DNA of 64,000 nucleotides from Gammaproteobacteria bacterium (GCA_965205685.1 OZ242174.1:285231-349230), one strand, 5' to 3'. Counted from the stretch's first letter, positions 5,141-21,763 are shown. Made by a program: numbers and translations. The notes: generated by a model from the sequence alone, not told the origin.

Positions 5141-5692
5141 GTGTTCAACAATCCATTCGAGTCATTTCACAACATGGTCGCCGAGGCCAAGGAAGAACGT
5201 GAGCAGCTGGACCGGCTGCTGACCATTTCTACCCCCAATGAGCGTGCGCTGGTGGCTGCCATCGCCGGGGTGCTGGTGGTGCTTTTGGTCTGGCTGGTGT
5301 TTGGCAGCGTGGCCCGCAGCCTGACGTTCGACGGGGTCCTGGCCGGTCCCGGTGAGAGCACGCTGACAGGCGAGCACAACCTGCAGGCGATGGTGTGGAT
5401 CAAGCGTGATGCCGCGGCACAGATCGAGGCCGGTCAGCCTGCGAGGATCGAGTTCAGTGGAGCCGACGGGCACCTCCACACCCTGGCAGGGGAAGTGACA
5501 GGCATTTCCGCACTGCCCCTGACCGAGTTCCTGGCGATGTTCGAGGGCCGTGCACCGCTGTCGGTGCACCGCCTGCACATCCGACTCGATGAACGCCCCG
5601 AGGGCGCTGTGCCTGCACGCAAGGAATGTGAAGTCACCATCGAAGTGGGCAGACAGTCGCCGATCGCACGCCTTCGGATGAGGCCCTCCTGA
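5141..5692 (+). CDS. truncated HlyD-like membrane-fusion protein of an NHLP-type bacteriocin export system
   Basis: A single TM segment (LVAAIAGVLVVLLVWLVF) is followed by a beta-barrel/lipoyl-like segment. It is only 183 aa and lacks the alpha-helical hairpin. Its stop lies 1 nt before the C39 ABC exporter start. Confidence 0.5.
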   Translation: MFNNPFESFHNMVAEAKEEREQLDRLLTISTPNERALVAAIAGVLVVLLVWLVFGSVARSLTFDGVLAGPGESTLTGEHNLQAMVWIKRDAAAQIEAGQPARIEFSGADGHLHTLAGEVTGISALPLTEFLAMFEGRAPLSVHRLHIRLDERPEGAVPARKECEVTIEVGRQSPIARLRMRPS

Positions 5693-5693
5693 G

Positions 5694-7904
5694 ATGGCAC
5701 CGAGTGCCTCCAAGGGCACCGGGGATCAGGCCACCTCGGATTCCGTCAAGCACCGGATCGCCACACCCGTGATGCTGCAGATGCACGCCTCCGAATGCGG
5801 GGCGGCGAGCCTCGGCAGCGTACTGGGCTTTTTCGGGCGCTGGGTGCCGCTGACCGAGTTGCGCGAGAAGTGCGAGGTCAGCCGCGACGGCAGCAGCGCG
5901 GCGAGCCTGCTGCGGGCCTCCCGCCACTACGGGCTGGAATGCAGTGGCCTGAGCGTACGTTCCGAGTCGCTGAAAAAACTGGAGTTGCCGCTGATCCTGT
6001 TCTGGCAGTTCAGTCATTTCCTGGTCCTCGAAGGCTTCGACGAGCGGTACTTCTACCTCAACGACCCGTCCACCGGGCGGCGCAAGGTCAGCGCCGAGGA
6101 GTTCGAAAAGAGCTACAGCGGGATCGCCTTGCGCTTCAAGCGCGGCAAGGATTTCAAGGCCGGCGGCGAGGCTCCCGGCCTGTTCACACAACTTGGCACC
6201 CTGCTGGCCGGCTCCTGGACGGTGCTTGCCGGAGTGGCGGCCACCGCCCTCATGGTGACGTTGCTGGCCCTGGTCGTGCCCGCGGTGCTCAGCATCTTCG
6301 TTGACGACGTGCTGGAAAACCACGGCGCCTGGGGCGGGCTGGTGGGCGCGCTGCTGGGTGCCGGGGTGCTGGTCTACCTGCTTTCCCTGCTCAAGCACCG
6401 GTTTTTGAAGCGACTGGCGGTGCGGATTTCGGTGATTGGATACAACCGCAACCTGACGCGCCTGCTGCGCCTGCCAGTGGAATTTTTCGAGCACCGCCTG
6501 ACCGGTGACCTGACCGACCGGGTGTCCTCCATCGACCGCATCGCGAAAAATCTCACTGACCAGTTCCTGGTGCTGCTCGTCGACATGGTCATGAGCGCGG
6601 TGCTGCTGATCGTGATGCTGGTGTACGAACCCCTGCTGAGCCTGATCGTGGTGTTACTCGCCGTCCTTCACGGCATGGTCGTGCACTTTTTGAATTCGCT
6701 TCGCACGGTGCGCATCCAGTCGATGCGCCGCGAACAGGGATTGCTGATCGGCGTGGGCATGCAGATGCTGAGCCATGCGGACACCCTTCGCATGACCGGT
6801 GCGGACGACCGGTTCTTCTCGCGCTGGAGCGGCCAGCAGGCGCGCGAACTGGAGGCGCGCCAGCACTACTTTGAACTCAGCGCATTCAACACCGCGCTGC
6901 CGGGGCTGGTGGCCATTCTCCGGGCCGCCGTGATCCTCGGCATCGGCGGAAGCCTGGTGCTGGCCGGGGAAATGAGCCTGGGTGCCTTGGTCGGGTTCTA
7001 CATCCTGGCGGAGATGTTCCTGTCGCCCATCGGGCAGTTCCTGGAGTTCGCCGACAGGCGCCAGGCCCTGGAGACCGACCTGCAGCGACTCGAGGACATC
7101 TCGCGGGCCGCTGAAGATCCCGTGATCCGCCGCCGAAGCCCGGAATCGGAGTCCATCCCGACGTTCAACGGGCGCCTGCAGCTGACCGGGCAACTCGAAC
7201 TGCGCGACGTCACCTTCGGATTCAACAGGAGCCGCCCGCCCCTGCTCAAGGAGTTCAACCTGACGATCCAGTCCGGGCAGCGCGTTGCCGTGGTGGGCCC
7301 GAGCGGTTCCGGCAAGTCGACCCTGGCGCGCCTGGTGTCCGGGGTGTACCAGCCCTGGTCCGGCGAAATCCTGTTCGACGGGCACCTGCGCGATGAGATC
7401 CCGGAGGAAGTCCTGCGCCAGTCCATCTCCATGGTGGACCAGGAGGTCGTGCTGTTTTCCGCGTCGCTGCGCGACAATATCACCTTGTGGAATTCGGCCA
7501 TCCCGGATGAGGCCATCTTCGCCGCCACGCGCGATGCCTGGATCCACGACGAGATCCTGCTTCGCCCGCAAGGCTATGCGACCGAGGTCGAGGAAGGTGG
7601 GGTAAACTTCAGCGGCGGCCAGCGCCAGCGCCTGGAAATCGCCCGCGCGCTGGTCGGCAACCCGACCGTACTCATCCTGGACGAGGCCACCAGCGCGCTC
7701 GATGCGGCGACCGAGGAGCATGTCGATGATGCCTTGCGCCGTCGCGGCGTGACCTGCCTGATCGTGGCACACCGCCTGAGCACGGTGCGCGACTGCGACG
7801 AAATCATCGTGCTCGATCAGGGGACCGTGGTGCAGCGCGGCACGCACGATGACCTGATTGCAGATCGCGATGGCACCTATTACAAGCTGGTCAAGTCGGG
7901 ATAA
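5694..7904 (+). CDS. NHLP/bacteriocin-family ABC exporter with N-terminal C39 peptidase domain
   Basis: C39 active-site context QMHASECGAASLGSV. Six TM helices. Walker [10 protein letters not shown], signature FSGGQRQRLEIAR, Walker B LILDEATSALD. Confidence 0.9.
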   Translation: MAPSASKGTGDQATSDSVKHRIATPVMLQMHASECGAASLGSVLGFFGRWVPLTELREKCEVSRDGSSAASLLRASRHYGLECSGLSVRSESLKKLELPLILFWQFSHFLVLEGFDERYFYLNDPSTGRRKVSAEEFEKSYSGIALRFKRGKDFKAGGEAPGLFTQLGTLLAGSWTVLAGVAATALMVTLLALVVPAVLSIFVDDVLENHGAWGGLVGALLGAGVLVYLLSLLKHRFLKRLAVRISVIGYNRNLTRLLRLPVEFFEHRLTGDLTDRVSSIDRIAKNLTDQFLVLLVDMVMSAVLLIVMLVYEPLLSLIVVLLAVLHGMVVHFLNSLRTVRIQSMRREQGLLIGVGMQMLSHADTLRMTGADDRFFSRWSGQQARELEARQHYFELSAFNTALPGLVAILRAAVILGIGGSLVLAGEMSLGALVGFYILAEMFLSPIGQFLEFADRRQALETDLQRLEDISRAAEDPVIRRRSPESESIPTFNGRLQLTGQLELRDVTFGFNRSRPPLLKEFNLTIQSGQRVAVVGPSGSGKSTLARLVSGVYQPWSGEILFDGHLRDEIPEEVLRQSISMVDQEVVLFSASLRDNITLWNSAIPDEAIFAATRDAWIHDEILLRPQGYATEVEEGGVNFSGGQRQRLEIARALVGNPTVLILDEATSALDAATEEHVDDALRRRGVTCLIVAHRLSTVRDCDEIIVLDQGTVVQRGTHDDLIADRDGTYYKLVKSG

Positions 7905-10846
7905 TGCAGGACACCCAGCCCGCCTACTCCTCGATCGCCGAACTCGCGGCCCGCCTGGGGACTGACGTGCCCTGTGCCGGTAACCTGCCGGTGAAGCTCG
8001 ACGATGCGGACAGCATCTGGCTCATTGACCGGGGCACCGTCAACCTGTTTTTAGTCGAGCTCAAGGACGGTGTGGAGCAGTCGTCTCCACAGCATCTGCT
8101 GCGCCGCGAGGCGGGCTGGTTCCTGCCAGGGGTTCCTGCGCGCGAACCTGATGCGCAGGATGGAACCACGCTGAGCCTGGTAGCCAAGGGTCTGCCCTGC
8201 ACCTTGCTGAAACGCTTGCCGGTCTCCCTGCTGTCCAAGGTGCACCCGGGCGAGCTTGCCGAGCAGACCGATGCCTGGCTGAGCGAGATGACCGACACGC
8301 TGTCGCGCTTCGCCACGCCCGCACCGCGCCCGACGGCCCTGGCCGAGGCCGGTGCGATACAGGTCCCGGCGCATAGCACGCTGTCGGTGCAGCGCAAGGT
8401 GGTGTGGGCGTCCCCGCACCCGGGCAGTGCGCTGCTGTTCATGGACATCGTCGATCCGATGGAGTTGGCCGAGGCCAGCGGCGCAGGGGATGCGGTTCTG
8501 CCGCTGACCCGCACCAGCTGGCTGACCACGCTGGAGGAGACCACGCTGGAGTGCGTGAGCACGCAAACCCTGGCCGAGCAGGGCCGCCTGCAGGGCGCAC
8601 TGTCGTATTTTCATGAGGTCGCCTTCACCCTGGAGCGCCTGAACCGCCGCCTAGCCGTGGTCGACGATGTGAACCTCGAACGTGCCCGCACAACGAGCCG
8701 GCGCACGGCCGAGAAGGCGGCCCGCGCGCGCCTGTTCAACCTCTACGACCAGCCGGTGGGCCGCTATGCCGGCCTTGAGGACACCACCTTGGTCGATGCC
8801 CTGCAGGTCATTGGCCGCCACGAGGGTATCGATTTTAAGATTCCCGTACGTTCCGGGCCTTCGCAGGCTTCGCTCGGCTTGGTCGACGTGCTGGATGCCT
8901 CCGGAGTGCGCGCAAGGCGCGTGCGGCTCAAGGACGAGGACCGGTGGTGGCGCACCGACAGCCACGCGATGCTGGGATTTCGTGCCAAGGACGGCCAGCC
9001 CGTGGCCCTGCTGCCGGGTGTGTTCGGCGGCTACCGCGAAATCGACCCGGTCAGCAAGCGCACGGTTCGCGTCAGCCAGGAACGCGCAGATGCACTGCGT
9101 GAGGACGCGTGGATGTTCTACCGCCCCTTGCCTGCAGACGAGGTGAAACCGGCGGACCTGCTGGGCCTGGCTCTGCAGGGATCGGGACCGGACATTGCCC
9201 GGCTGGTGCTCGCAGGACTTCCCTACGGGCTGATCCAGTTGTTGCCGGCCATCGCGCTTGGCTTTGTCGCCCATGAAATCGCCGCAGGCGGCACTGCCGG
9301 TGCGATCTACGCCGTGGCCTGGGTGTTGGCCGGGTTCGGCCTTCTCGGGGCACTGCTGCACCTCGCGCAAAGTACGGCGATGATGCGTCTTGAGGGGCGC
9401 TCGGCCTCGCGCGCAGAAGCGGCCTTCTGGGACCGCCTCATGCGATTGCCGCCGGCCATCCTGCACCGCCATCCGTCAGGCGACCTGGCGATGTCGGGCA
9501 TGACCTTCCAGAACCTTCGAGACGGCCTGCAGGGAGTGGTCGCCGACAGCTTCCTGTCAGTCATCTTCCTGGCCCCGGTGTTTGCCGTCATCTTCTTCTA
9601 CGATGCCGCCCTCGGCAGTCTCGCCCTGGCCTTCAGCCTGGGGTCGCTGCTCATTACAGGGATGCTCGGTGTCCTGCAGATTGCCCCGTACGGGCGCATG
9701 ATTCGTGCGTCACGGCGTGTCGCCGGGCGCCTGTTCCAGATCGTTGGCGGCTTTGCCAAGCTGCGCGTGGAAAATGCCGAAGGCTCCGCGTTTGCCATGT
9801 GGGCCGAGGACTACCGCGAGCAAAAACGCGCGGAACTCGATTTGAGCGTGCTGGAGGGGCATTCGCGGGCGTTTTCCGCAGCATTGCCGTTTCTCGCGGG
9901 AGCCTTCTTGCTGCTGGCCGCAGTGACCGTCGGCGAGCGCATCATGCCGGTCGGTGATTTTCTGGTCGTCTACCTGGTCTTCATCGCCTTCCAGAGCGCG
10001 ATCGCACGCCTTGGCGAGTCTCTGGGGACCGTTGCGGCCCTGTTGCCGGCGTTCAAGCAGATGCGCCCGCTGCTGGCTGCAGATCCAGAAACCGAGACCG
10101 AAGGCGAGCCGGTGGAATACCTGGGCGGGGACCTCCTGTTCGACCGCATCTCGTTTCGCTACGACCCGGACGGCCCGCTGATTCTCGACGATGTCACGAT
10201 CCACGCACGCGCAGGCGAGTTCATCGCCATCGCCGGCGAGTCCGGCACCGGCAAGAGCACCCTGTTTCGCCTCGCACTCGGCATCGACCGGCCCACGGCG
10301 GGCGCGGTGTACTACGACGGGCGCGATGTGCGCCACCTGAACCTGCGCCAGCTGCGCCGCAAGGTTGGTGCGGTGCCGCAAGCCGTGGGACTTCACCCCC
10401 TGGATATCTGGGACAACCTGGTCAGCCATCATGACGGGATCACCACCGAAGAGGTCTGGGAGGCGGTGCGAACCGCCGAAGTCGAGAAAGAGATCAAGGC
10501 CATGCCCATGGGCATGATGACCATGGTCGGCGCTAGCGGCTCGGTGCTGTCTGGTGGCGAGAGCCAGCGCGTCACCATCGCCCGCTCGGTGATCGGCAAG
10601 CCGCGGATCATGTTGTTCGACGAGGCGACCAACTGGCTGGATAACGAAAACCAGGCCCGGGTCATGGACAACCTGACCGACCTGACCTCTACCCGGCTGG
10701 TCATCGCCCACCGCCTGTCCACGCTCGAGCAGGCGGATCGCATCTACGTGCTGTCCGGCGGCAAGGTGGTGCAGCACGGCAGCTTCGAGGAACTCATGGA
10801 AGAGGACGGGGTGTTCAAGGAACTGGTCAAAAGGCAGATCGCCTGA
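7904..10846 (+). CDS. second ABC exporter of the NHLP bacteriocin system (long N-terminal extension, permease and ATPase)
   Basis: A ~430-aa N-terminal domain precedes the TM domain. Walker A GESGTGKST, signature LSGGESQRVTIAR, Walker B MLFDEATNWLD. ATG overlaps the preceding stop (TAATG). Confidence 0.85.
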   Translation: MQDTQPAYSSIAELAARLGTDVPCAGNLPVKLDDADSIWLIDRGTVNLFLVELKDGVEQSSPQHLLRREAGWFLPGVPAREPDAQDGTTLSLVAKGLPCTLLKRLPVSLLSKVHPGELAEQTDAWLSEMTDTLSRFATPAPRPTALAEAGAIQVPAHSTLSVQRKVVWASPHPGSALLFMDIVDPMELAEASGAGDAVLPLTRTSWLTTLEETTLECVSTQTLAEQGRLQGALSYFHEVAFTLERLNRRLAVVDDVNLERARTTSRRTAEKAARARLFNLYDQPVGRYAGLEDTTLVDALQVIGRHEGIDFKIPVRSGPSQASLGLVDVLDASGVRARRVRLKDEDRWWRTDSHAMLGFRAKDGQPVALLPGVFGGYREIDPVSKRTVRVSQERADALREDAWMFYRPLPADEVKPADLLGLALQGSGPDIARLVLAGLPYGLIQLLPAIALGFVAHEIAAGGTAGAIYAVAWVLAGFGLLGALLHLAQSTAMMRLEGRSASRAEAAFWDRLMRLPPAILHRHPSGDLAMSGMTFQNLRDGLQGVVADSFLSVIFLAPVFAVIFFYDAALGSLALAFSLGSLLITGMLGVLQIAPYGRMIRASRRVAGRLFQIVGGFAKLRVENAEGSAFAMWAEDYREQKRAELDLSVLEGHSRAFSAALPFLAGAFLLLAAVTVGERIMPVGDFLVVYLVFIAFQSAIARLGESLGTVAALLPAFKQMRPLLAADPETETEGEPVEYLGGDLLFDRISFRYDPDGPLILDDVTIHARAGEFIAIAGESGTGKSTLFRLALGIDRPTAGAVYYDGRDVRHLNLRQLRRKVGAVPQAVGLHPLDIWDNLVSHHDGITTEEVWEAVRTAEVEKEIKAMPMGMMTMVGASGSVLSGGESQRVTIARSVIGKPRIMLFDEATNWLDNENQARVMDNLTDLTSTRLVIAHRLSTLEQADRIYVLSGGKVVQHGSFEELMEEDGVFKELVKRQIA

Positions 10847-10900
10847 TCCGAACCCGAACGGTCCACTTCGACTCCACAGCAGGCTTGTGAAAACACTCCC

Positions 10901-12196: not shown

Positions 12197-12207
12197 GGAA
12201 GTAAGGT

Positions 12208-13372: not shown

Positions 13373-13467
13373 CCCTCCGTCCCGGTGCGGGACGGAGGGT
13401 CAGTCTAGATAAAAGCAGATCGACGCAGGCGCGGATGGCCTGCGTCTGGACCGGCTAGTAGCCGGTC
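13373..13467. terminator. cluster of three stem-loops between convergent genes (bidirectional terminator region)
   Basis: CCCTCCGTCCC-ggtgc-GGGACGGAGGG, GACGCAGG-n9-CCTGCGTC and GACCGGCT-agt-AGCCGGTC. The last lies ~8 nt past the precursor stop. Confidence 0.45.
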
Positions 13468-13474
13468 ATCGGTG

Positions 13475-14439: not shown

Positions 14440-16773
14440 TCAGGGTGAGGCCGCGGAGGACTTTCCGGGCATTCGGTCCACCAGCATCAACAGCGCCGGC
14501 AAGAGGGTCAGGTCGGCCACCAGCGCAAAGCCGATGATCAACGCGGTCAGCACGCCCACCTGCGCGGTGGGCACGAACGGCGAGAACACGAAGATCAGGA
14601 AGCCCGCGACCAGCACGAGCGTGGTGGTGAGCAGCGCGCGCCCAGCCGTATCGAAGGCATAATGAATGGCCTGCTCGGGCGCCTGGCCGTATTCGCGGCG
14701 CGCCCTCTGGTACTTGCTTAGAAAATGCACCGTGTCGTCGACGACGATGCCGACGGTCATGGCGACCACGACCGAGAGCGAAAGCCCCACCTGCCCGACC
14801 GTCAACCCCCAGACCCCGAAGCCCAGCGCCGCCGGCACCAGGTTGGGCACGATGCTGATCAGGCCCAGGCGAATCGACTGCAGGGCGATCAGCAGGATGG
14901 CGGAAATTGCCACCAGCACCAGCACGGTGCCAATCAGCATGGCGCGGATGTTGCGCTGTCCGATATAGGCGAACAGGGCCGCCGGCCCGGTGCTGTTGAT
15001 CTCGGTAATGTCCGATGCGTTCTCGGCCAGCCAGGCGTTGGCGTGCGAATTCAGCTCCAGCACCTCCCGCGAGGACAGCGTCTCGGCCGAGACCGAGACG
15101 CGCGTCGCCGACCTCGAGCGGTCGATCTGGTTGTTCATGTCCAGGCCCTGCGGCAGCGACAGCTCGTACAGCAGCAGGTACTGCGCCGCGAGCTCCTGGC
15201 TTTCCGGGAGCCGGTAGGCCGCGGGATCATCGCCATGCATGCTCATGTTGAGTTGCTGGAAGGTGTCTGTGATGACCGCGACGTGGCGCACCGGGGGCTG
15301 TTCACGGTACCACTCGGCAAACCGGGCGATCTCGGTCAGGAAATCCGGGTGGGTGGCCCCGCCTTCCTCGGGAGCGTGCAGCGAGTACTCCAGCAGGGTG
15401 TTGCCGCTCAGGTGCTCGTCCATGAAATCGGTGTCCTGGCGAAACTCCGTGCCCTCGTCGAAAAAGTGCACCAGCACGTCGCTGAGCTCGTTGCGGGGAA
15501 TGGCCGTGAGCATGACCGGAACGATCACCAGCCAGGTGACGAACAGCGCAGTCCTGTAGCGCAGCACGGTGTTGGCGAGGCGCTCGATGGTGACCGCACC
15601 CAGCTTTCGCTCTGGGCGCGCACGAAACGGCAACAGCGAGATCAGGGCCGGCAGGAAGGTCACCGAGAGCGTGAAGGAGGCGACGATGCCGATGGCGATG
15701 AAGTTGCCGAGATGACGGTAGGGCGGCACCTCGGAGAAATTCATGCTCAAAAACCCGAGCGCGGTGGTCAGGCTCGCCAGAAACACCGGGTGCAGGTTGT
15801 ATCTGAGCGACTCGACGATGGCCTCATTCTTGGAATCGCCCGCGCGAAGCCGCTGCTGCAGGGCCACCAGCAGGTGCACGCAGTTGGCCACGACGATCAT
15901 CAGCACGATGGTCGGAGCCGGCGAGATGGGCGGCGAGAACGGCAGGCCAAGCCACACGCCACCGCCAAGGGATACGAGGATGGAAAAGACGATCACCAGG
16001 CCGGTCGCGGCCACACCCGTCCAGCTGCGGACGAGCAGGCCGAGAATCACGGCCATGAGCACGAGGCTGGCCGGCAGGAAAATCTTCTGGCTGTCGACCG
16101 AGGCCTCGACAAAGGTCTGGCTGACCATGACCGTGCCGACGATGCGAAGGTCAATGCCCGGGAAGCGCTGCTCGCCCTCGCCAGCCACCTTGCGGGCGTA
16201 CCCGGTCACTTCTGCCACGGCCTCGAGCAGCCCCTCCTCCGGCGGCTCCAGGGTGACGTTGACGACACTGACATCGCCGCCGCGCCCGAGGATGCTGCCG
16301 GCGATCCTGGGGTCGGACAGCGCAATGGCCCGGATCTGCTTGCGAACCTCGGCATCGTCCAGTGTTTGCGGGTCGATGAGGTCGCGCACGTACAGGTCAT
16401 CGCCGTCGGCGGTGGTGTACTGGAAGTTGGCGAGCGAGTCCACGCGTCGCGAATAGGGCGTTCGCCAGGCGGCCTCGGTCAGCCAGACGGTGGCCGAAAG
16501 CGCGTTTTGCGAGGTGGCGTCACCGTCGTCGGGGACGATCAGGAACGCGAGGTTCTCGTTCTTGCCGTAGGTTTTCTCAAGCGCCTCCAGATCCAGCAGC
16601 TGCGGGTTGTCTCCATCGAAGAAGATGCGGTAGTTGGCGGAGAACTCAAATCGCGCGATGCCGCTTGCAGCGAGGGCCACCAGCACCAGCGAGGCGACAA
16701 TGATTGGCCAGCGCCAGGCGATCACCCACTCGCCAAAGCGCATCGCAAACGGTGGATGTCCGGGTGTATTCAC
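14440..16773 (-). CDS. RND-superfamily exporter (COG1033 / MMPL/HpnN-like)
   Basis: 777 aa with twelve predicted TM segments in two blocks separated by large periplasmic loops. The N-terminus MRFGEWVIAWRWPIIVASLVLVALAASG is typical of this family. Confidence 0.85.
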   Translation of the reverse strand: MNTPGHPPFAMRFGEWVIAWRWPIIVASLVLVALAASGIARFEFSANYRIFFDGDNPQLLDLEALEKTYGKNENLAFLIVPDDGDATSQNALSATVWLTEAAWRTPYSRRVDSLANFQYTTADGDDLYVRDLIDPQTLDDAEVRKQIRAIALSDPRIAGSILGRGGDVSVVNVTLEPPEEGLLEAVAEVTGYARKVAGEGEQRFPGIDLRIVGTVMVSQTFVEASVDSQKIFLPASLVLMAVILGLLVRSWTGVAATGLVIVFSILVSLGGGVWLGLPFSPPISPAPTIVLMIVVANCVHLLVALQQRLRAGDSKNEAIVESLRYNLHPVFLASLTTALGFLSMNFSEVPPYRHLGNFIAIGIVASFTLSVTFLPALISLLPFRARPERKLGAVTIERLANTVLRYRTALFVTWLVIVPVMLTAIPRNELSDVLVHFFDEGTEFRQDTDFMDEHLSGNTLLEYSLHAPEEGGATHPDFLTEIARFAEWYREQPPVRHVAVITDTFQQLNMSMHGDDPAAYRLPESQELAAQYLLLYELSLPQGLDMNNQIDRSRSATRVSVSAETLSSREVLELNSHANAWLAENASDITEINSTGPAALFAYIGQRNIRAMLIGTVLVLVAISAILLIALQSIRLGLISIVPNLVPAALGFGVWGLTVGQVGLSLSVVVAMTVGIVVDDTVHFLSKYQRARREYGQAPEQAIHYAFDTAGRALLTTTLVLVAGFLIFVFSPFVPTAQVGVLTALIIGFALVADLTLLPALLMLVDRMPGKSSAASP

Positions 16774-16784
16774 GCTGCGGTGCC

Positions 16785-19184
16785 TCAGGCGATGACCGCC
16801 ACGGGGTTGAGGTCAGCCTCGGCCAGCGGTGCCGTGCGCCTGCCCACCTGCACCGGCACCTCGTACAGGCGCCCCGGGGCAAAGCGCTCCCAGAAGTGGC
16901 GCATGCCCGGCACGATGACCCGTGCCACCGGCATGCCGATATCGGGCCGGGTCTGCTCGAGCACCAGCATCTCCAGGCCCTTGTCGGCCACCAGGGTACA
17001 GCAGCGCTCGACGTCCTCCTTGATGTCGGCAGTCTCGGGCAGCGGGTAGTCCGTCCGTCCCCGCGCGGGTACCCCGGGGTCCGGAGCCAGGTAGGGATGA
17101 TCCTCGAGCCTCGCGTTCTGCCACCAGGCGAGGCACATCGGGTCATCGACCCCGTATCCGGTGTGCCCGGCCTGCGGGCGCGGAACCCAGGTCAGGCACT
17201 GGTTCATCTCGCACACTGCCCGCAAGGCGGCGATGCGCGCATCGGTGTGTGCTCCGGCCCCGTACAGGATGTCTTCGGACTGCGCATCGGTCCTGCGCGA
17301 CAGGGCCACGAAGGCCGGGATGGGAAAATCGGCGCTGACGTCGAGCAGCCACATGTCGCGCTCGAGCGTTCGGTAGTAGTCCGGTGCACCGGCCAGGTAG
17401 TCGTCGTTGAAACTCTCAAGCTCGACGCGCGGACAGCGCAGGCGGTTGTACCACCAGATAGAGAAGGCATCGCGCTCCACCAGCTCGAGAAAGCCCTGCA
17501 GGATGGCCTCCTCCAGCGTGTTGCCGGCCGCGCACCCGTTCGAGTCCGCCCAAAGATCCCGCGGGCCGCGCTGCTCGGGGGTCATGCCGTAGAGTATCGA
17601 GGTCGGCAGGTAGCAGTGGCGCGCGCGGGTGAGCGAGTACACCGGCGACCAGTCGACCTCGGCTTCCACATTAAAGCGCGGGGGAATGATGTTGTAGGGG
17701 TGCGCGCGGGCATTAATATCATCGGCGTGCTCGAGCTGGTGGTCGCTGAACAGCTGCACCTCGTTCGGATGGATGGCCTGCCCGTCTTCGCCCTGGCCTT
17801 CGAACTCCGAATAGCGCTTGCGGGTGCGGATCTCATCGCCGTGGAAGGCGCCCGAATAGCGCTCGATGGCCTCGCAAAGCGCGCTCGCCTGCGACTGCTC
17901 GGGCGTGCTTCCCTTGCCCGCGCTCTTGCTTCGAAGGCTGCGCCGCAGCGAACTCAGGCTCTTGATGCGAAGCGCCAGGTTGGAGCCTGCCCAGTGCACG
18001 TGCAGCCAGGAGTCGCTGACCTCCGTGGTGCGTTCCAGCCAGCTGACCACGCCGCTGACCGGGCTGATCAGGTGGCGGTAGCGGGCCAGGGTCTGCTCCG
18101 GATGGACCGCGCGAAGCCCGCCGCTGTTTTGCACATCCTTCGGGCTGGGCTTGAGCTGCACTGCCCGTGGCGGGCGATCCGCCCGGTAGTGCGTTTCCTC
18201 GCCACACACGGGACACTGCGGGCGCCTGCACACGGGATGGCTCTGCGTTTTCAGAGGACCAAGTTCGAGCGTGATGGCATTCGAGTGGATCGGGGCACGC
18301 TCGGTGAAGACCAGCCACTTGGCGATCTCGGCCGCGATCAGTGCGTGCACGGCGCCCAGCAGCCCGGGCTCGGCGGCGAAGGCACGAAAAGCGCCTGCCT
18401 CGCCCTCGCGGTTGCGCACGAAGGTGTGGACCTCTTGGTGGTTTTGCAGGCGGTAGGCGAGACAGTTCCAGCACGGCCCGCCCGTGCCCGGTCGAAACAC
18501 CGGACCGATGAGCGGGCTGGTCCCCTTGGGACGGGCCAGCATCCAGGGGCGGCCCGAGGCCAGGTGCCCGCGGTTGAGGCCGGCGTGCTGCGCATCGAGA
18601 TAGTCCTCGCAGACCACCACGTCAAGTGCCTCACCCTGTGGGCTCACGGCCACCCCGAGCGACTCCAGCGCACCCGTGAGGGCACATTCCTCGTCCCCGG
18701 CCACGCTCACACCCGTGCTCTCCAGGCGCTCCTCGACGAACCGCGGGGAGGCCCCGAGCGAGGACCACCAGGCTGCGCGCTCGCGCGCCATGCGGTATTC
18801 ACCTGAAACGATGTAGCCTCGCGAGGTGAGGGATTTGAGCCAGGCGTTGGGGTCTTGGCCAACCCACTGTGCCCCCAGGGTAGCGGTGATCTCGTCGTGG
18901 CTGTTCGTGCCATCCAGCAGCGCCAGCAGCGGTCCGTAGAATGGACCGTGCAGCAGCGTGTTGAAGGATTCGGAGACGAGCAGCACGCGCTCCTCATCGA
19001 GGATCCGGTACTCGAGATGCGGGGCCAGCACGGGCATTTCGATAACGCCGGTATCGGCCGCACTCACCTTGTGCAACAGGCCTTGCGGGGCAGTCGCATT
19101 CGGCCCTGTGCCCGCCGCGTGCGGGCTGTGTGGTCCTGGCATACCCGAATCCGCAACCATGCTCCGTAGCATAAAGGGGATCAC
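16785..19184 (-). CDS. TOMM-type cyclodehydratase: E1-like (ThiF-like) docking domain fused to YcaO
   Basis: The N-terminal domain has a CxxC…CxxC zinc tetrad (CWNC…CPVC). The C-terminal YcaO region includes SGGLRAVHPEQTLARY and ALCEAIERYSG. This architecture co-occurs with NHLP/Nif11 precursors. Confidence 0.85.
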   Translation of the reverse strand: MIPFMLRSMVADSGMPGPHSPHAAGTGPNATAPQGLLHKVSAADTGVIEMPVLAPHLEYRILDEERVLLVSESFNTLLHGPFYGPLLALLDGTNSHDEITATLGAQWVGQDPNAWLKSLTSRGYIVSGEYRMARERAAWWSSLGASPRFVEERLESTGVSVAGDEECALTGALESLGVAVSPQGEALDVVVCEDYLDAQHAGLNRGHLASGRPWMLARPKGTSPLIGPVFRPGTGGPCWNCLAYRLQNHQEVHTFVRNREGEAGAFRAFAAEPGLLGAVHALIAAEIAKWLVFTERAPIHSNAITLELGPLKTQSHPVCRRPQCPVCGEETHYRADRPPRAVQLKPSPKDVQNSGGLRAVHPEQTLARYRHLISPVSGVVSWLERTTEVSDSWLHVHWAGSNLALRIKSLSSLRRSLRSKSAGKGSTPEQSQASALCEAIERYSGAFHGDEIRTRKRYSEFEGQGEDGQAIHPNEVQLFSDHQLEHADDINARAHPYNIIPPRFNVEAEVDWSPVYSLTRARHCYLPTSILYGMTPEQRGPRDLWADSNGCAAGNTLEEAILQGFLELVERDAFSIWWYNRLRCPRVELESFNDDYLAGAPDYYRTLERDMWLLDVSADFPIPAFVALSRRTDAQSEDILYGAGAHTDARIAALRAVCEMNQCLTWVPRPQAGHTGYGVDDPMCLAWWQNARLEDHPYLAPDPGVPARGRTDYPLPETADIKEDVERCCTLVADKGLEMLVLEQTRPDIGMPVARVIVPGMRHFWERFAPGRLYEVPVQVGRRTAPLAEADLNPVAVIA

Positions 19185-19294
19185 AGGCGCTGACCAGCGT
19201 GAAATGCGCCAGTCCGGCGCCTTGACATGCCAATCCCGATGCGGACAATGAATTTCAATGATGAATACATTCCAGCGCTTGGCTGGAGGTTGTT

Positions 19295-21763
19295 ATGGCG
19301 ATAGGTAATGTAGAGCCGGGTGGTGTGGGTGCCGGTGCCGGCCCTCGAGGCGGCATCATCGAGCCGACGATCTGGGCGGCCCTTCCGTATTTCATCTCGC
19401 TGATGGTCTTCCCCTTGATGCTGCTGGCCGCCACCTTCGGGGGCTGGTGGCTGCTTGGTCCGGCCTTCTATTTCATGCTGGCGGGCTGGTTCGACAAGCT
19501 GTTCGGCACGGAAACGCGCAACATGGACCCGGAGGCCACCCTGGAGAGCCAGCTGGTCCTGTACAAGCTGGCAATCTGGGCCTGGGCACTTCTGTGGCTG
19601 GTGACGTTCGTCTATGCGCTCTGGCAGATCCTGGTTGTGGGCCAGCTGGCGCTGTGGGAGAGCCTGCTGCTGGCCGTCCTGCTGGCCCTGGTGGGACAGG
19701 CGGTGTTCATCGCCGGACATGAGCTGATCCATCAACGTGCCCTGTGGGAGCGTCGCCTGGGCGAGCTTTTGCTGGCGTCCGTGTCGTACCCGATCTACGC
19801 CACCGAACACATCTACGTGCACCATGCCCTGGTGTGCACGCCGGCCGATCACGGCACGGCGATCAAGGGTCAGAGCTTCTGGCAGTACCTGCCGAAGGAT
19901 CTTGCCGCAAGCCTGCGCGAGTCCTGGCGTTTTGAGTGCAGCCGGCTGTCGAGGCGGCACCTGCCGGTGTGGCATTACAGCAACCCGTTCTGGCGCTATG
20001 GCCTGACGATGGCCGGATGGTATCTGCTGGTCTACTGGATGGGCGGGATCTGGGCGGTGCTGGTGTTTGCGCTGTTTTGCTCGGGCATCATCCTGTCCAT
20101 GAAAATCATCAACTACGTGCAGCACTACGGGTTGCAGCGCATCCGCTTGCCCAATGGCCGCTTCGAGCGTGTCGCGCCCCGCCATTCCTGGAGTGCGGCC
20201 AGCAAGTTCACCAACTGGATCTACTACAACATGCAGCGCCATGCCGACCATCACATCGAGGCCACCCGCTACTATCCGCTGCTGCAGCATCACGGCGAGG
20301 AGGAATCCCCGCAGCTGCCCAGGAACTATTCCGAGATGGCCGGGCTCGCCGTGGCCCCCAAACGCTGGTTCGAGGTCATGGATCCGATGGTGGACCGCTG
20401 GCGCGCGCGCTTCTATCCGCATATCAGTGACTGGAGCGCCTACGACAGTGCGGCCTTCGTAGCCCGCCCGGAATCGATCGAGCGCATCCAGGAAATCCTC
20501 GGAGCCTCGCCGCGCCTGACCGAGTGGATCAACGCCGCCCCGGAACTGCTGGACTGCCTCGAGGAGCGCGAGTTCACCGACCTGGACTTGCCCGACGGCT
20601 TCGGCCCGGACACGGGCTTTGAGACGATCGCGCGCAAGGGGCTTGCGCGGTTGTACTGGACGCATGAATTCGGCGTGGTAGAGATGACCGAGCAGCTGTC
20701 CGAGCTGCCGGCACAGGGCGAGCGCGAGAAAGTCGAGACCGTGCGCAACTGGCTCAACGACAAGGTCTTCCAGGTGAGCGTGCACGTGATGCGCGGCAAC
20801 CTCTCGCCGGTGGAGGCAGGACCCGTGTTCACGAACCTTGCACAGGCCTCGATCTCCGTGCTGCTGGCCGCCGTCGAGGACGAGTACCGCTCCACTTCGA
20901 GGCGTGCACGACGTTCCCGCGGCGCACTGGCCGCAGTCCTGCTCGGCGATGCGGCGAGCGGCGAAGCCGTTCCCGGTTGCGAACTCGAGGTTGCGTTCGT
21001 GTACCAGGGCACTCCGCCCGAGTACTACCGGGCCCTGGGGACACGCCTTTACAATGCACTGCGCGCGTTCTCCCATGAGAACCTGCTGTTCATCGAGGTC
21101 CCGCGCACCCGGGAAGCCCCGCGGGTACGCTCCCTGGAGGAATTTTCCGAGCACTACAGGACTGAGGGCACGGCCAGCGAGCTGCACGCGCTGATGCAGG
21201 CGCGTTGCGTGTTTGCACCGGTCGACTCCAGCCTGGACGTTCAGTTCGACAAGGTACGCTGCGAGGTGCTGACGCACGGGGCTGCTCGTCTTGAACTGCT
21301 GGACAAGCTCTCGGAGGCGTGTGGCGATGCCCCCCAGCCGGGGCTTGCCTCCATCGAGGACATGCACGGCGGCCAGGATGAACTCGAACGTGCGGCGCGC
21401 TGGGTGCAGTTGACCCATGCCGAGGATGCCCTGACCCTGCTGGTACCCGATACCGCCTCCGTGTTCGAAACGGCCGGCGGCTGCGGGCTGATGGATGAAC
21501 AAGCGGCCACGCGCCTGGCCGAGGCCACCCGCCTGTGGAGAAATATCCAAGGCGCCCTGCAGATGGTGGTGGGCTATCCCCTGGACGGGGAGGCGCTGGA
21601 CCCCAAGGTCAAGGCGGCCATTGCGCGTGCCTGCGCACAGGATGATTTTGATGAACTGGCCGAGCTCATTCGCGAGACCGCATCGCGCGCCGGCCTCGAT
21701 CTTGGTGCCCTGGAGGGTTTGCGGGAGAGTGATTCGGACCCCTTGCAGGATGCGCCCGGATAG
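19295..21763 (+). CDS. AlkB-like integral-membrane di-iron hydroxylase/desaturase fused to a GlnE/GlnD-like nucleotidyltransferase-type C-terminal domain
   Basis: His boxes HELIH, EHIYVHH, NYVQHYGL and RHADHH match the AlkB family. The C-terminal ~470 aa has a GlnE-like helical region and a degenerate NTase motif (GDAASGEAVPGCELEVAFVY). Confidence 0.65.
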   Translation: MAIGNVEPGGVGAGAGPRGGIIEPTIWAALPYFISLMVFPLMLLAATFGGWWLLGPAFYFMLAGWFDKLFGTETRNMDPEATLESQLVLYKLAIWAWALLWLVTFVYALWQILVVGQLALWESLLLAVLLALVGQAVFIAGHELIHQRALWERRLGELLLASVSYPIYATEHIYVHHALVCTPADHGTAIKGQSFWQYLPKDLAASLRESWRFECSRLSRRHLPVWHYSNPFWRYGLTMAGWYLLVYWMGGIWAVLVFALFCSGIILSMKIINYVQHYGLQRIRLPNGRFERVAPRHSWSAASKFTNWIYYNMQRHADHHIEATRYYPLLQHHGEEESPQLPRNYSEMAGLAVAPKRWFEVMDPMVDRWRARFYPHISDWSAYDSAAFVARPESIERIQEILGASPRLTEWINAAPELLDCLEEREFTDLDLPDGFGPDTGFETIARKGLARLYWTHEFGVVEMTEQLSELPAQGEREKVETVRNWLNDKVFQVSVHVMRGNLSPVEAGPVFTNLAQASISVLLAAVEDEYRSTSRRARRSRGALAAVLLGDAASGEAVPGCELEVAFVYQGTPPEYYRALGTRLYNALRAFSHENLLFIEVPRTREAPRVRSLEEFSEHYRTEGTASELHALMQARCVFAPVDSSLDVQFDKVRCEVLTHGAARLELLDKLSEACGDAPQPGLASIEDMHGGQDELERAARWVQLTHAEDALTLLVPDTASVFETAGGCGLMDEQAATRLAEATRLWRNIQGALQMVVGYPLDGEALDPKVKAAIARACAQDDFDELAELIRETASRAGLDLGALEGLRESDSDPLQDAPG

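What the first reader, a model, noticed from the sequence alone, without database searches (positions are those of the whole stretch)
5141..21763. Composite NHLP-type RiPP locus: C39 ABC exporter, second ABC exporter, mini-HlyD, E1-like/YcaO cyclodehydratase, precursor and unusual accessory fusions
The three export components match the nitrile-hydratase-leader-peptide (NHLP) microcin export trio. The precursor carries the NHLP leader, and an E1-like/YcaO fusion is the cyclodehydratase expected for such precursors. The arrangement is split into a plus-strand export/accessory unit (5141-13347) and a minus-strand unit (19184 down to 13475). In the minus-strand unit the cyclodehydratase is followed by a housekeeping-type COG1033 RND exporter, an IS1595 remnant and then the precursor. 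Several components have non-canonical architectures, listed separately.
Basis: partly seen in the sequence, partly recalled or inferred. Interest (0 to 1): 0.85.

Follow-up and report, generated by a model that had tools for sequence, protein, structure and literature searches.

The report
Sponge-symbiont srp brominated thiazoline peptide cluster
This is a complete copy of the already published "srp" gene cluster, which sponge-associated bacteria of many phyla share and which makes a tiny brominated, thiazoline-rich peptide from the precursor core LCCCW; the new result is that three of its uncharacterised genes look like a prenyltransferase, a terpene cyclase and an alkane-type hydroxylase.

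Summary
The 83-aa precursor passes the NHLP model, the 799-aa protein is an RRE/E1-like/YcaO cyclodehydratase, and the 736-aa protein is a C39 ABC exporter.

The locus is not a new composite. It belongs to the published srp (sponge-derived RiPP proteusin) family. The precursor is a 252-bp gene ending in AG|LCCCW, with NISEEQL at residues 66-72.

A flavin-dependent Trp halogenase lies at 1235-2509(-), outside the flagged range, so the cluster spans about 1235-21763.

The "housekeeping" RND pump, a LolA-like protein and an outer-membrane protein recur next to srp loci of other lineages (29, 17 and 17 of 80). The "IS1595 remnant" is a lineage-specific insertion. It has stayed intact under purifying selection (dN/dS 0.11-0.18).

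Relatives occur in 298 species-level genomes from at least seven phyla-level lineages, at about 65% identity, with a nearly invariant core.

New inference, from structure prediction:
- The 431-aa protein is an NHLP domain fused to a class II terpene-cyclase fold with an invariant DxDST motif.
- The 822-aa protein starts with an AlkB hydroxylase with intact His boxes.

The still unknown end product may therefore be a peptide-terpenoid hybrid.

The parts
1235..2509 (-). SrpI-like flavin-dependent peptidyl-tryptophan halogenase (424 aa). Lies outside the flagged range.
   Evidence: PF04820 Trp_halogenase, 148.9 bits. Best solved relative is the lanthipeptide Trp halogenase MibH, 5uao, E 5.6e-27. 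It is 66% identical to the halogenase of a Gemmatimonadota srp locus, L008. Present in 52 of 80 loci. Motifs GRGTAG at 16 and GWIFVIP at 218.
2829..4058 (-). Outer-membrane-like protein (409 aa), probable outer-membrane partner of the RND/LolA-like module.
   Evidence: The predicted protein ends in the aromatic residue F. Only a sub-threshold DUF1302 match, E 0.013. Homologues at 58-71% identity lie next to srp genes in 17 of 80 loci.
4058..5038 (-). LolA-like / DUF1329-like periplasmic carrier (326 aa).
   Evidence: PF17131 LolA_like, 197.4 bits. Found next to srp genes in 17 of 80 loci.
5141..5692 (+). Short membrane-anchored adaptor ('mini-HlyD', 183 aa).
   Evidence: Only residues 21-72 match TIGR03794, at 22.9 bits. 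One TM helix at 36-55. The same 183-190-aa size is conserved in 53 of 80 loci at 46-58% identity. dN/dS 0.12-0.16.
5694..7904 (+). C39 peptidase / ABC exporter (736 aa), the predicted leader protease and exporter.
   Evidence: TIGR03796, 857.7 bits, above the cut-off. PF03412, PF00664 and PF00005. C35, H108 and D124 present.
7904..10846 (+). Second ABC exporter (980 aa) with a 290-aa N-terminal extension of unknown fold.
   Evidence: TIGR03797, 656.7 bits, below the 709.4 cut-off, over residues 294-979. No family match for residues 1-293. Full-length homologues in 59 of 80 loci.
10901..12196 (+). NHLP-like domain fused to a class II terpene-cyclase-like alpha/alpha toroid (431 aa).
   Evidence: TIGR03793, 44.6 bits, on residues 9-63. 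Gap-free 33% identity to the precursor over 76 residues, E 1e-15. Model pLDDT 75, pTM 0.79. Foldseek top hits are drimenol synthase, small SHC-like cyclases and MstE, E 1e-9 to 1e-8. phmmer to 8paj, E 1.2e-6, aligns its DADST motif with the invariant D207-L-D209-S-T. Found in 298 species-level genomes.
12208..13347 (+). Unannotated 379-aa protein with a predicted ABBA (PT-barrel) aromatic prenyltransferase fold.
13422..13446 (-). Terminator-like hairpin just downstream of the precursor gene.
   Evidence: 9-bp stem with 7 GC pairs, followed by a T-rich tail.
13475..13726 (-). Precursor SrpE (83 aa): NHLP leader, AG cleavage site, core LCCCW.
   Evidence: TIGR03793, 68.1 bits. Sequence ...NISEEQLEAISAG|LCCCW. 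AGGAGG ribosome-binding site. 100% amino-acid identity at dS 0.66. The tail GLCCCW is found in 68 of 70 precursor copies recovered from the other 90 fetched loci (L001-L090). Matches published SrpE.
13892..14329 (-). IS1595-derived 145-aa zinc-ribbon protein: a lineage-specific insertion between the RND gene and the precursor gene.
   Evidence: PF12760, 42.9 bits. NF033547, 52.6 bits, below the cut-off of 75, covering positions 1-70 of 215. The spacer is 701-735 nt here against 146-379 nt in other lineages. The ORF is intact with the same stop codon in 6 related loci. dN/dS 0.11-0.18 at dS up to 0.53. Seen only in this lineage, 2 of 80 loci.
14440..16773 (-). HAE3/MMPL-type RND transporter (777 aa), a cluster-associated exporter.
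   Evidence: PF03176, 118.6 bits. Matches to TIGR00921 and HpnN are below their cut-offs. Homologues at 72-80% identity sit inside srp loci of Gamma-, Alpha- and Deltaproteobacteria, Binatia and Thermodesulfobacteriota, 29 of 80 loci.
16785..19184 (-). SrpC-like cyclodehydratase (799 aa): winged-helix RRE, E1-like domain and YcaO.
   Evidence: PF21084, TIGR03882 (141.7 bits), TIGR03604 (252 bits) and PF02624 (315 bits). Present in 72 of 80 loci.
19295..21763 (+). AlkB-type membrane di-iron hydroxylase/desaturase fused to a GlnE-like domain (822 aa).
   Evidence: Alkane 1-monooxygenase 8f6t, E 1.1e-54. PF00487 and PF03710. The His boxes HELIH, EHIYVHH, NYVQHYGL and RHADHH are at least 95% conserved in 70 orthologues, apart from a few spacer positions and one Ala, while the nucleotidyltransferase core of the GlnE-like part is poorly conserved. 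Present in 63 of 80 loci.

Best explanation
Window 1235-21763 is a complete, selectively maintained copy of the srp (sponge-derived RiPP proteusin) biosynthetic gene cluster in a Thiotrichales-like gammaproteobacterium.

Steps shown for homologues in the literature:
- The 83-aa precursor SrpE is made from its own small gene.
- The RRE/E1-like/YcaO enzyme (SrpC) converts the three cysteines of the core LCCCW to thiazolines.
[quoted passage not shown] This step depends on the leader.

Steps inferred here:
- The C39 ABC exporter cuts after Ala-Gly and exports the pentapeptide, together with the second ABC protein and a short adaptor.
- In this and other proteobacterial versions, an RND pump, a LolA-like carrier and an outer-membrane protein carry the hydrophobic product onwards.
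- Before export, the 379-aa ABBA-fold protein probably prenylates the peptide, most likely on Trp.
- The NHLP-tethered class II cyclase-like protein may then cyclise the prenyl chain.
- The AlkB-like enzyme may oxidise the product.

The order of genes here is a lineage-specific rearrangement. The IS1595-derived gene is a lineage-specific addition.
For: Identity with srp:
- The core is LCCCW, NISEEQL sits at residues 66-72, and the gene is 252 bp.
- YcaO and the E1-like domain score above their curated cut-offs.
- The halogenase is present.

Maintenance:
- Five near-identical syntenic contigs were found.
- dN/dS is 0.05-0.3 for nearly all gene-locus comparisons. The exceptions are a zero and about 0.33 in the nearly identical L002 pairs, where dS is below 0.02. 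The precursor is 100% identical at dS 0.66.

Family-wide gene content:
- Relatives occur in 298 species-level genomes. In the best 80 loci, YcaO is present in 72, the PT-like protein in 71, AlkB-GlnE in 63, the precursor in 61, ABC2 in 59, ABC1 in 53, the adaptor in 53, the halogenase in 52 and the RND pump in 29.

Fold assignments.

Link of the PT-like family to NHLP RiPPs with Trp cores:
- All 5 distant homologues examined lie in NHLP clusters, and all 7 cores contain Trp. The chance of that is about 2e-6.
- A leader-dependent ABBA prenyltransferase acting on Trp is known for a Nif11-leader lanthipeptide (MppC; PMC12715784).

The AlkB His boxes are conserved.
Against: - No biochemistry was done here. 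The activities of SrpC and SrpI are taken from papers on homologues whose sequences I could not align directly, because JACS 2021 is not held.
- The prenyltransferase and cyclase assignments rest on AlphaFold models of moderate confidence (pLDDT 75-77) and on 7-19% identity to solved enzymes.
- ABBA-fold proteins without activity exist. This is my own recollection of PatF.
- No prenyl-diphosphate synthase, rubredoxin or flavin reductase is conserved in the loci.
- The second ABC protein and the adaptor fall below the curated NHLM cut-offs.
- The held literature reports no prenylated srp product.
Confidence: 0.85

Rival explanations
1. One reading: a generic NHLP/TOMM microcin locus assembled by chance next to unrelated genes (a housekeeping RND pump, a dead IS element, unrelated fusion proteins). 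In this view the unusual neighbours say nothing about the pathway.
For: - The gene order here is split over four transcription directions.
- The IS1595-type gene is truncated.
- The RND, LolA-like and outer-membrane genes are missing from many srp loci of other phyla.
Against: - The same RND (72-80% identity), LolA-like, outer-membrane, AlkB-GlnE, PT-like and NHLP-cyclase genes travel with LCCCW precursors in unrelated phyla, in many different gene orders.
- No other gene family recurs in more than 9 of 80 loci.
- All these genes are under purifying selection.
Confidence: 0.03
2. The product is only the brominated tris-thiazol(in)e pentapeptide. The 379-aa and 431-aa proteins do not act as a prenyltransferase and a cyclase. 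They would instead be scaffolds, chaperones that bind the leader, regulators of the YcaO enzyme, or immunity proteins. The AlkB-like protein would act on membrane lipids or serve in self-protection.
For: - The held literature describes only cyclodehydration and bromination, and calls the remaining genes 'of unknown function'.
- Identity to real prenyltransferases and cyclases is very low.
- No isoprenoid supply genes are found in the loci.
- The NHLP domain on the 431-aa protein could simply compete with, or co-assemble with, the precursor.
- Recombinant SrpC alone works poorly, which fits a missing partner protein.
Against: - The acid motif DxDST is invariant and aligns with the DADST motif of a solved class II cyclase.
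- Across the whole PT-like family the near-invariant residues include Arg, Lys, Tyr, His and Glu, as expected for a diphosphate site.
- In two distant clusters (L094/L095, L097) the PT-like protein is the only candidate tailoring enzyme next to a precursor and its exporters.
- All associated cores contain Trp.
Confidence: 0.4
3. The AlkB-like di-iron enzyme is the missing azoline oxidase. It would desaturate thiazolines to thiazoles in place of the FMN-dependent SagB/McbC-type dehydrogenase, which srp clusters lack.
For: - No SagB-type dehydrogenase was found in the window cluster or among the recurrent genes of the 80 loci.
- The enzyme belongs to the FA_desaturase superfamily, has intact His boxes and is present in 63 of 80 loci.
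- The literature writes 'azole' for the product.
Against: - The closest solved relatives are alkane terminal hydroxylases, E 1e-54, not desaturases.
- I know of no precedent for a membrane di-iron azoline oxidase.
- The enzyme is absent from some loci that keep YcaO. Those loci are cut at 10 kb, so this point is weak.
Confidence: 0.15
4. The copy in this genome is a decaying, non-functional cluster, disrupted by rearrangement and by an IS insertion between the RND gene and the precursor gene.
For: - The gene order differs from the commonest order elsewhere.
- IS-derived DNA lies directly upstream of the precursor.
Against: - All ORFs are intact.
- dN/dS is 0.05-0.3 against relatives diverged to dS 0.3-0.66.
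- The same rearranged order is kept in L011 and L012, and, without the IS gene, in L021 and L036.
- The precursor keeps a strong ribosome-binding site and a terminator.
Confidence: 0.04

Closest known systems
srp BGCs (sponge-derived RiPP proteusins; SrpE, SrpC, SrpI; Nguyen et al., JACS 2021, as described in PMC10858898, PMC10286304 and bioRxiv 10.1101/2023.06.09.544420)
   Same: An 83-aa NHLP precursor from a 252-bp gene, the core LCCCW, the N-x-x-EEQL motif at residues 66-72, a YcaO cyclodehydratase, a Trp halogenase, ABC transporters, and a distribution across many bacterial phyla of sponge microbiomes.
   Different: - Leader residues 67-68 are I-S here. The published SrpE has L-T and Waterworth et al. 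report I-T.
- The gene order is rearranged.
- An IS1595-derived gene is inserted upstream of the precursor.
- An RND/LolA-like/outer-membrane module is embedded in the cluster.
- The held papers give no function for the 379-aa, 431-aa and 822-aa proteins.
mpr cluster of a methanotroph (MprE1-10, YcaO MprC, FMN oxidase MprD; PMC12455567)
   Same: NHLP precursors processed by an RRE-containing YcaO enzyme. The precursor here matches the solved MprE7 leader, 8tb1, at E 1e-9.
   Different: mpr has an FMN-dependent azoline oxidase and many variable cores. The locus here has no such oxidase, a single invariant core, and a halogenase.
NHLP/TOMM systems with the NHLM export trio (Haft, Basu and Mitchell 2010; PMC2887384)
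   Same: An NHLP leader, a fused cyclodehydratase-docking protein (TIGR03882/TIGR03604), and a C39 ABC exporter (TIGR03796).
   Different: The adaptor has only 183 aa and matches just the first ~50 positions of TIGR03794. The second ABC protein is below the TIGR03797 cut-off and carries 290 extra residues.
MppC, a leader-dependent ABBA prenyltransferase of a Nif11-leader lanthipeptide (PMC12715784), and the cyanobactin prenyltransferases (PagF, KgpF)
   Same: A predicted ABBA fold, an association with long structured leaders, and Trp in the core.
   Different: - No detectable sequence similarity to any annotated prenyltransferase family.
- The activity, the donor and the acceptor atom are untested.
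MstE and other single-domain class II terpene cyclases (6sbb, 8paj/8pak, the beta domain of drimenol synthase 9mhs)
   Same: The predicted alpha/alpha toroid and the DxD(S/T)T acid motif. MstE cyclises a prenyl chain that is already attached to an aromatic ring, which is the logic proposed here.
   Different: The domain here is fused to an NHLP leader-like domain and encoded in a RiPP cluster. Its substrate is unknown.
AlkB alkane 1-monooxygenase (8f6t, 8sbb)
   Same: All four His-box motifs are present, with E 1e-54 over residues 26-369.
   Different: It is fused to a GlnE-like domain whose catalytic core is not conserved, instead of to rubredoxin. No rubredoxin gene was found among the recurrent genes.

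Membership tests
srp (sponge-derived RiPP proteusin) BGC family | NHLP precursor of 83 aa ending in the core LCCCW, with the L(X)4L-type motif N-x-x-E-E-Q-L at residues 66-72 | tested here: met
   The sequence is ...PDPNISEEQLEAISAGLCCCW and the gene is 252 bp. It was compared with the published descriptions.
srp (sponge-derived RiPP proteusin) BGC family | YcaO cyclodehydratase (SrpC) encoded with the precursor | tested here: met
   The 799-aa protein scores PF02624 315 bits, TIGR03604 252 bits and TIGR03882 141.7 bits.
srp (sponge-derived RiPP proteusin) BGC family | Flavin-dependent peptidyl-Trp halogenase (SrpI) in the cluster | tested here: met
   1235-2509(-): PF04820 148.9 bits. It is 66-77% identical to halogenases of other LCCCW loci.
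srp (sponge-derived RiPP proteusin) BGC family | Occurrence in sponge microbiomes across bacterial phyla | tested here: inconclusive
   The source of the window is not given. The relatives are MAGs, one titled Spongia_Bin9 (L057), and they span at least 7 phyla-level lineages. That these MAG series come from sponges is my own recollection.
srp (sponge-derived RiPP proteusin) BGC family | [quoted passage not shown] | not testable with these tools
   Known for homologues only.
NHLP leader family (TIGR03793) | Score above the curated cut-off of 50.9 bits | tested here: met
   The 83-aa precursor scores 68.1 bits. The N-terminus of the 431-aa protein scores only 44.6 bits, which is not met.
NHLM export trio (TIGR03794, TIGR03796, TIGR03797) | All three proteins above their curated cut-offs | tested here: not met
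   TIGR03796 scores 857.7 against 853.3 (met). TIGR03797 scores 656.7 against 709.4 (not met). TIGR03794 scores 22.9 against 156.2 (not met).
TOMM / azole-forming systems | FMN-dependent SagB/McbC-type dehydrogenase that oxidises azolines | tested here: not met
   No such domain was found in any cluster protein or among the recurrent genes of the 80 loci.
ABBA (PT-barrel) aromatic prenyltransferases | Barrel of repeated alpha-alpha-beta-beta units | tested here: met
ABBA (PT-barrel) aromatic prenyltransferases | Sequence membership in an annotated prenyltransferase family | tested here: not met
   No Pfam, NCBIfam or PDB sequence hit for the protein or for 10 distant homologues.
ABBA (PT-barrel) aromatic prenyltransferases | Transfer of a prenyl group from a prenyl diphosphate to an aromatic acceptor | not testable with these tools
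   Indirect evidence only: near-invariant R218, R223, K323, H352, K354, K366, Y368 and E71, and Trp in all 7 associated cores.
Class II terpene cyclases | Alpha/alpha toroid with the general-acid motif DxDD or DxD(T/S)T | tested here: met
   Foldseek E 8e-10 to drimenol synthase, SHC-like cyclases and MstE. The invariant D207-L-D209-S-T aligns with DADST of 8paj. Pfam SQHop_cyclase_C scores 21.7 bits, below the cut-off of 26.1.
AlkB / FA_desaturase membrane di-iron enzymes | Conserved histidine boxes | tested here: met
   HELIH at 142, EHIYVHH at 171, NYVQHYGL at 273 and RHADHH at 315. These are at least 95% conserved in 70 orthologues, apart from a few spacer positions and one Ala. Match to 8f6t, E 1e-54.
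GlnE adenylyltransferase | Conserved nucleotidyltransferase catalytic core | tested here: not met
   PF03710 is matched at 37.6-40 bits. However, residues about 545-600 and the C-terminus are poorly conserved among 70 orthologues, and no conserved acidic pair is present.
IS1595 transposase | Zinc ribbon plus a complete DDE transposase domain | tested here: not met
   The zinc ribbon is present (PF12760, 42.9 bits). Only positions 1-70 of 215 of NF033547 are matched, at 52.6 bits against a cut-off of 75. The ORF ends at 145 aa.

The most novel reading that the evidence does not exclude
The long-cryptic end product of the srp clusters is not a bare brominated thiazoline pentapeptide. It is a peptide-terpenoid hybrid.

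The proposed route:
- An unannotated family of ABBA-fold enzymes prenylates Trp. This family also serves other NHLP RiPP clusters with Trp-containing cores, in two of them as the only candidate tailoring enzyme.
- A class II terpene cyclase carrying its own NHLP leader-like docking domain cyclises the prenyl chain.
- An AlkB-type oxidase decorates the product.
- A lipid-type RND/LolA-like/outer-membrane route exports it.

The NHLP-enzyme fusion would be a natural case of a RiPP leader domain used in cis on a tailoring enzyme.
Probability: 0.35. Interest if true: 0.75.

Novelty: new member of a known kind. Interest (0 to 1): 0.42.

Why it matters
The srp clusters are among the most widespread and most highly transcribed biosynthetic loci in sponge microbiomes. 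Their natural product and their ecological role are still unknown.

As a locus, this window adds only one more, rearranged, member of the family.

The useful outcome is a set of concrete, testable assignments for the three conserved 'unknown' genes: a prenyltransferase fold, an NHLP-tethered class II cyclase fold and an AlkB hydroxylase. A second outcome is the finding that the prenyltransferase-like family recurs in other NHLP clusters with Trp-containing cores.

These assignments tell chemists which masses to look for: [M+H]+ 651.09 for the known intermediate, and 719.15, 787.21, 855.28 or 923.34 if it is prenylated. They also tell them which genes to co-express.

Tried and rejected
- My own greedy longest-ORF caller chose a spurious plus-strand ORF (1127-2518) over the real halogenase gene. 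Pfam on that ORF gave nothing. The gene surfaced only through tblastn with the halogenase of locus L008.
- Exact-sequence look-ups of the YcaO, 431-aa and 379-aa proteins found nothing. Only the precursor was on record.
- The founding srp paper (PMC8780398 / 10.1021/jacs.1c03474) and the mpr paper (PMC9746716) are not held. I could not check how their authors annotated srpA-I, and I could not align the published SrpC and SrpI sequences.
- Relaxed Pfam searches gave nothing for the adaptor, the N-terminal 293 residues of ABC2 or the 379-aa protein. The 409-aa protein gave only a sub-threshold DUF1302 hit.
- I considered the S8 subtilase autotransporter (21878-24385) as a leader protease. I rejected it as a cluster part because it is absent from all 80 loci.
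- I looked for further recurrent genes (SagB-type oxidase, prenyl-diphosphate synthase, rubredoxin, flavin reductase). None was found. The next most frequent family is an AcrB-type efflux set, seen in 9 loci, one of them a Nitrospirales locus.
- I considered that the 431-aa protein is itself an exported, C39-cleaved cargo. Its leader-like part aligns gap-free up to an invariant Gly at the -1 position. I rated this less likely than a docking role, because the second Leu of the L(X)4L motif, which C39 domains and SrpI use, is replaced by an invariant Arg.
- A search for papers combining NHLP leaders with class II cyclases or prenylated RiPPs found nothing.

Full report

Yes.
- The 83-aa product of 13475-13726(-) passes the NHLP leader model (TIGR03793, 68.1 bits, cut-off 50.9).
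- The 799-aa product of 16785-19184(-) combines a winged-helix domain, the E1-like TOMM domain (TIGR03882, 141.7 bits) and YcaO (PF02624, 315 bits; TIGR03604, 252 bits).
- The 736-aa protein passes TIGR03796 (857.7 against 853.3). It keeps the C39 residues C35, H108 and D124.

- The 980-aa protein is closest to TIGR03797 but falls below its cut-off (656.7 against 709.4). It also has 290 unassigned N-terminal residues.
- The 183-aa 'mini-HlyD' resembles TIGR03794 only over about 50 residues (22.9 bits against 156.2).

**2. What is it?**

The precursor reads MRSGDDMLKQIVEKSALDTEFRQQLLDDPKSTISAELGITMPESMNVVVHESDMQTVHLALPPDPNISEEQLEAISAG|LCCCW. The published srp family (sponge-derived RiPP proteusins) has the same signature: a 252-bp gene, an NHLP leader, the motif N-x-x-EEQL at residues 66-72 and the core LCCCW.

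The papers I could read describe three steps for that family.
- The YcaO enzyme SrpC turns the three Cys into thiazolines.
- The flavin-dependent enzyme SrpI brominates the C-terminal Trp at C6, and this requires the leader (PMC10858898; PMC10286304).
- The clusters occur, and are highly transcribed, in many bacterial phyla of sponge microbiomes (bioRxiv 10.1101/2023.06.09.544420; PMC9426513; PMC11832590).

The founding JACS 2021 paper is not held.

**3. The missed signature enzyme and the true borders**

My first ORF pass also missed the halogenase. A tblastn search with the halogenase of a Gemmatimonadota srp locus found it at 1235-2509(-), at 66% identity over 420 residues. Three further results confirm it.
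- PF04820 scores 148.9 bits.
- The best solved relative is the lanthipeptide halogenase MibH.
- The motifs GRGTAG and GWIFVIP are present.

A LolA-like protein (PF17131, 197 bits) and a 409-aa outer-membrane-like protein lie between the halogenase and the flagged region. The cluster therefore spans about 1235-21763. The S8 autotransporter to its right is not part of it (0 of 80 loci).

**4. Comparative evidence**

The precursor is encoded, identical in amino-acid sequence, on five metagenome or MAG contigs. These are syntenic with the window at 85-97% nucleotide identity. Almost every gene-locus comparison gives dN/dS of 0.05-0.3; the exceptions are a zero and about 0.33 in the nearly identical L002 pairs, where dS is below 0.02. 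The precursor has no amino-acid change at dS 0.66.

The 431-aa protein has more than 1000 homologues at about 65% identity. It has relatives in 298 species-representative genomes. The closest, at 94-95%, are a Thiotrichales MAG and a 'Proteobacteria bacterium' MAG. The others are labelled Pseudomonadales, Alphaproteobacteria, Nitrospira and Nitrospirales, Binatia, Thermodesulfobacteriota, Bryobacterales, Vicinamibacterales, Terriglobia, Longimicrobiales and Palauibacter, and Nitrospinota.

Within 10 kb of the gene in the best 80 loci I found:

| Gene | Loci of 80 |
|---|---|
| YcaO | 72 |
| 379-aa protein | 71 |
| AlkB-GlnE fusion | 63 |
| Precursor | 61 |
| ABC2 | 59 |
| ABC1 | 53 |
| Short adaptor | 53 |
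| Halogenase | 52 |
| RND | 29 |
| LolA-like protein | 17 |
| 409-aa protein | 17 |
| IS1595-type gene | 2 |

Of the 70 precursor tails recovered from the other 90 fetched loci (L001-L090), 68 end in GLCCCW. The other two end in LSCCW and LCCSW. No other gene family recurs in more than 9 loci. About 65% identity across phyla, together with many different gene orders, indicates repeated horizontal transfer of a modular cluster.

**5.

- *The RND pump is not a housekeeping intruder.* Homologues at 72-80% identity sit inside srp loci of Gamma-, Alpha- and Deltaproteobacteria, Binatia and Thermodesulfobacteriota. They often occur together with the LolA-like and outer-membrane proteins. At least one Nitrospirales locus (L043) instead carries an AcrB-type set next to the cluster.
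- *The arrangement is a lineage-specific rearrangement.* The commonest order elsewhere is [RND] adaptor-ABC1-ABC2-NHLP/cyclase-[AlkB]-YcaO-PT, with the precursor convergent on the other strand. The window's order is shared only with L011 and L012 and, without the IS gene, with L021 and L036.
- *The IS1595 piece is truncated but not decaying.* It has a zinc ribbon and 70 of the 215 transposase positions, and it lacks the rest of the transposase domain. It lies in a spacer of 701-735 nt, against 146-379 nt in other lineages. It is intact with the same stop codon in six related loci. Its dN/dS is 0.11-0.18 at dS up to 0.53, and its four zinc-ribbon Cys are kept. A domesticated DNA-binding role upstream of the precursor is possible but untested.

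The precursor itself has an AGGAGG ribosome-binding site and a hairpin terminator. This fits the reported very high transcription of that single gene.

**6. The conserved genes 'of unknown function'**

*The 379-aa protein (12208-13347).* It has no Pfam, NCBIfam or PDB sequence match. An AlphaFold model (pLDDT 77, pTM 0.79) shows repeated alpha-alpha-beta-beta units.
- A profile search of 1.8 billion representative proteins finds 706 clusters of relatives, and none of the ten I tested is annotated.
- All five distant members I could place lie in other clusters made of an NHLP-like precursor, a C39 ABC exporter, an ABC2 of about 980 aa and an adaptor. In two of those clusters the protein is the only candidate tailoring enzyme.
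- All seven associated cores contain Trp: SNDQWTDYSNW, EDAACQGDWDDSHLECRNAE, EECETLIERTWSRDCSI, NEESDTNDPPTWHP, AGAENCEWGHDHHDEYHVPLGGP, GNQVFCSGWL and LCCCW. The chance of this is about 2e-6 at a Trp frequency of 1.3%, treating the cores as independent.
- Family-wide near-invariant residues include E71, R218, R223, K323, H352, K354, K366 and Y368, which is the kind of set a diphosphate site needs.
- A leader-dependent ABBA prenyltransferase that geranylates Trp in a long-leader RiPP is known (MppC; PMC12715784).

*The 431-aa protein (10901-12196).* Residues 6-81 align without gaps to the precursor (33% identity, E 1e-15). The alignment runs up to an invariant Gly78 opposite the precursor's -1 Gly. 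The linker that follows is predicted to be disordered yet is almost invariant.
- The C-terminal 330 residues model as an alpha/alpha toroid. The best matches are single-domain class II terpene cyclases: the drimenol synthase beta domain, small SHC-like cyclases 8pak and 8paj, and MstE (E 1e-9 to 1e-8).
- phmmer finds 8paj at E 1.2e-6 and aligns its DADST motif with the invariant D207-L-D209-S-T.
- The second Leu of the L(X)4L motif, which SrpI and C39 domains recognise, is an invariant Arg here. I therefore favour a docking or assembly role for the NHLP domain over cleavage and export. This is inference.

*The 822-aa protein (19295-21763).* It starts with a true AlkB-type domain (8f6t, E 1e-54). 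Its four His-box motifs are at least 95% conserved in 70 orthologues, apart from a few spacer positions and one Ala. The GlnE-like part keeps its helical N-terminal piece but not a nucleotidyltransferase core. It is probably not an adenylyltransferase.

**7. Most likely mechanism**

*Shown for homologues:* SrpE is made, three thiazolines are installed by the YcaO enzyme, and Trp C6 is brominated in a leader-dependent step.

*Inferred from family knowledge:* the C39 domain cuts after A-G. Export runs through ABC1 and ABC2 with a minimal adaptor. In diderm proteobacterial versions, the RND/LolA-like/outer-membrane route carries a hydrophobic product onwards.

*Inferred here from folds, motifs and co-occurrence (about 35-40% likely as a whole):* Trp is prenylated by the ABBA-fold enzyme. 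The prenyl chain is then cyclised by proton-initiated chemistry in the NHLP-tethered class II cyclase; the analogy is MstE acting on a prenylated arene. Oxidation by the AlkB-like enzyme follows.

A rival role for AlkB is thiazoline-to-thiazole desaturation, because no SagB-type oxidase is present.

**8. Comparison with what is known, and novelty**

The locus meets every sequence-level criterion of the srp family that I could test (see the membership table). It is a new, rearranged member of a known kind.

I could not find the following in the held literature: the fold-level assignments of the three conserved unknowns, the NHLP-enzyme fusion, and the wider NHLP-associated ABBA-like family with Trp-containing cores. 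The founding paper could not be read, so priority cannot be excluded.

**9. Caveats**

- The models have moderate confidence, and identities to solved enzymes are 7-19%.
- A fold is not an activity.
- Loci were cut at 10 kb on each side, so absences are lower bounds on presence.
- MAG taxonomy labels are as deposited. One 'Bifidobacteriaceae' label looks like a binning error.
- The sponge origin of most MAG series is my recollection. Only L057 says so in its title.

Noticed in passing
window 46000-57500: GC falls from about 0.63 to 0.46-0.54. The genes here are toxin-antitoxin or defence-like: HipA (46539-47915), HipA_2 (48106-48918), an AbiEii/AbiEi pair (50345-51945), Fic (52069-53562), HEPN/RES (54447-55676) and AAA_21 (56197-57423). 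This is probably a horizontally acquired island.
   Followed up: no
window 21878-24385 (+): An 835-aa S8 subtilase whose predicted protein ends in ...LLSGWLYSF sits directly beside the cluster. It is absent from all 80 srp loci of other species, so it is probably unrelated to the pathway.
   Followed up: partly
window 13892-14329 (-), and L001, L002, L003, L005, L011, L012: A truncated IS1595 N-terminal protein (145 aa, zinc ribbon) has been kept intact under purifying selection (dN/dS 0.11-0.18) directly upstream of the very conserved precursor gene. It is a candidate domesticated regulator.
   Followed up: partly
L091 2185-3633 (-), 8001-9095 (+); L094 5002-6534; L097 924-2562: Other NHLP-type clusters consist only of a Trp-containing precursor, a member of the same unannotated ABBA-fold family and the export proteins. 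L091 also encodes a 482-aa protein that looks like a tandem duplication of the C-terminal part of that family.
   Followed up: partly
L043 2288-8345 and other loci of the same gene cluster: Nine srp loci carry an AcrB-type RND pump, and seven carry the matching membrane-fusion and outer-membrane-factor proteins. The example, L043, is a Nitrospirales locus where the set lies next to the cluster. The Nitrospira and Nitrospirales loci lack the ABC/adaptor genes within 10 kb. This suggests that export modules are swapped between lineages.
   Followed up: no
L065 and L066 (contig CBDBZU010000004.1): One MAG contig carries two separate srp loci about 2 Mb apart.
   Followed up: no
window 7904-8782 (+): The second ABC exporter has a 290-residue N-terminal extension that is conserved in all orthologues but matches no Pfam family.
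   Followed up: partly
window 26226-29684 (-): A 1152-aa protein with a Calx-beta domain and an autotransporter beta-domain. A Sel1-repeat protein lies at 39461-40615. Both are typical of host-associated bacteria.
   Followed up: no
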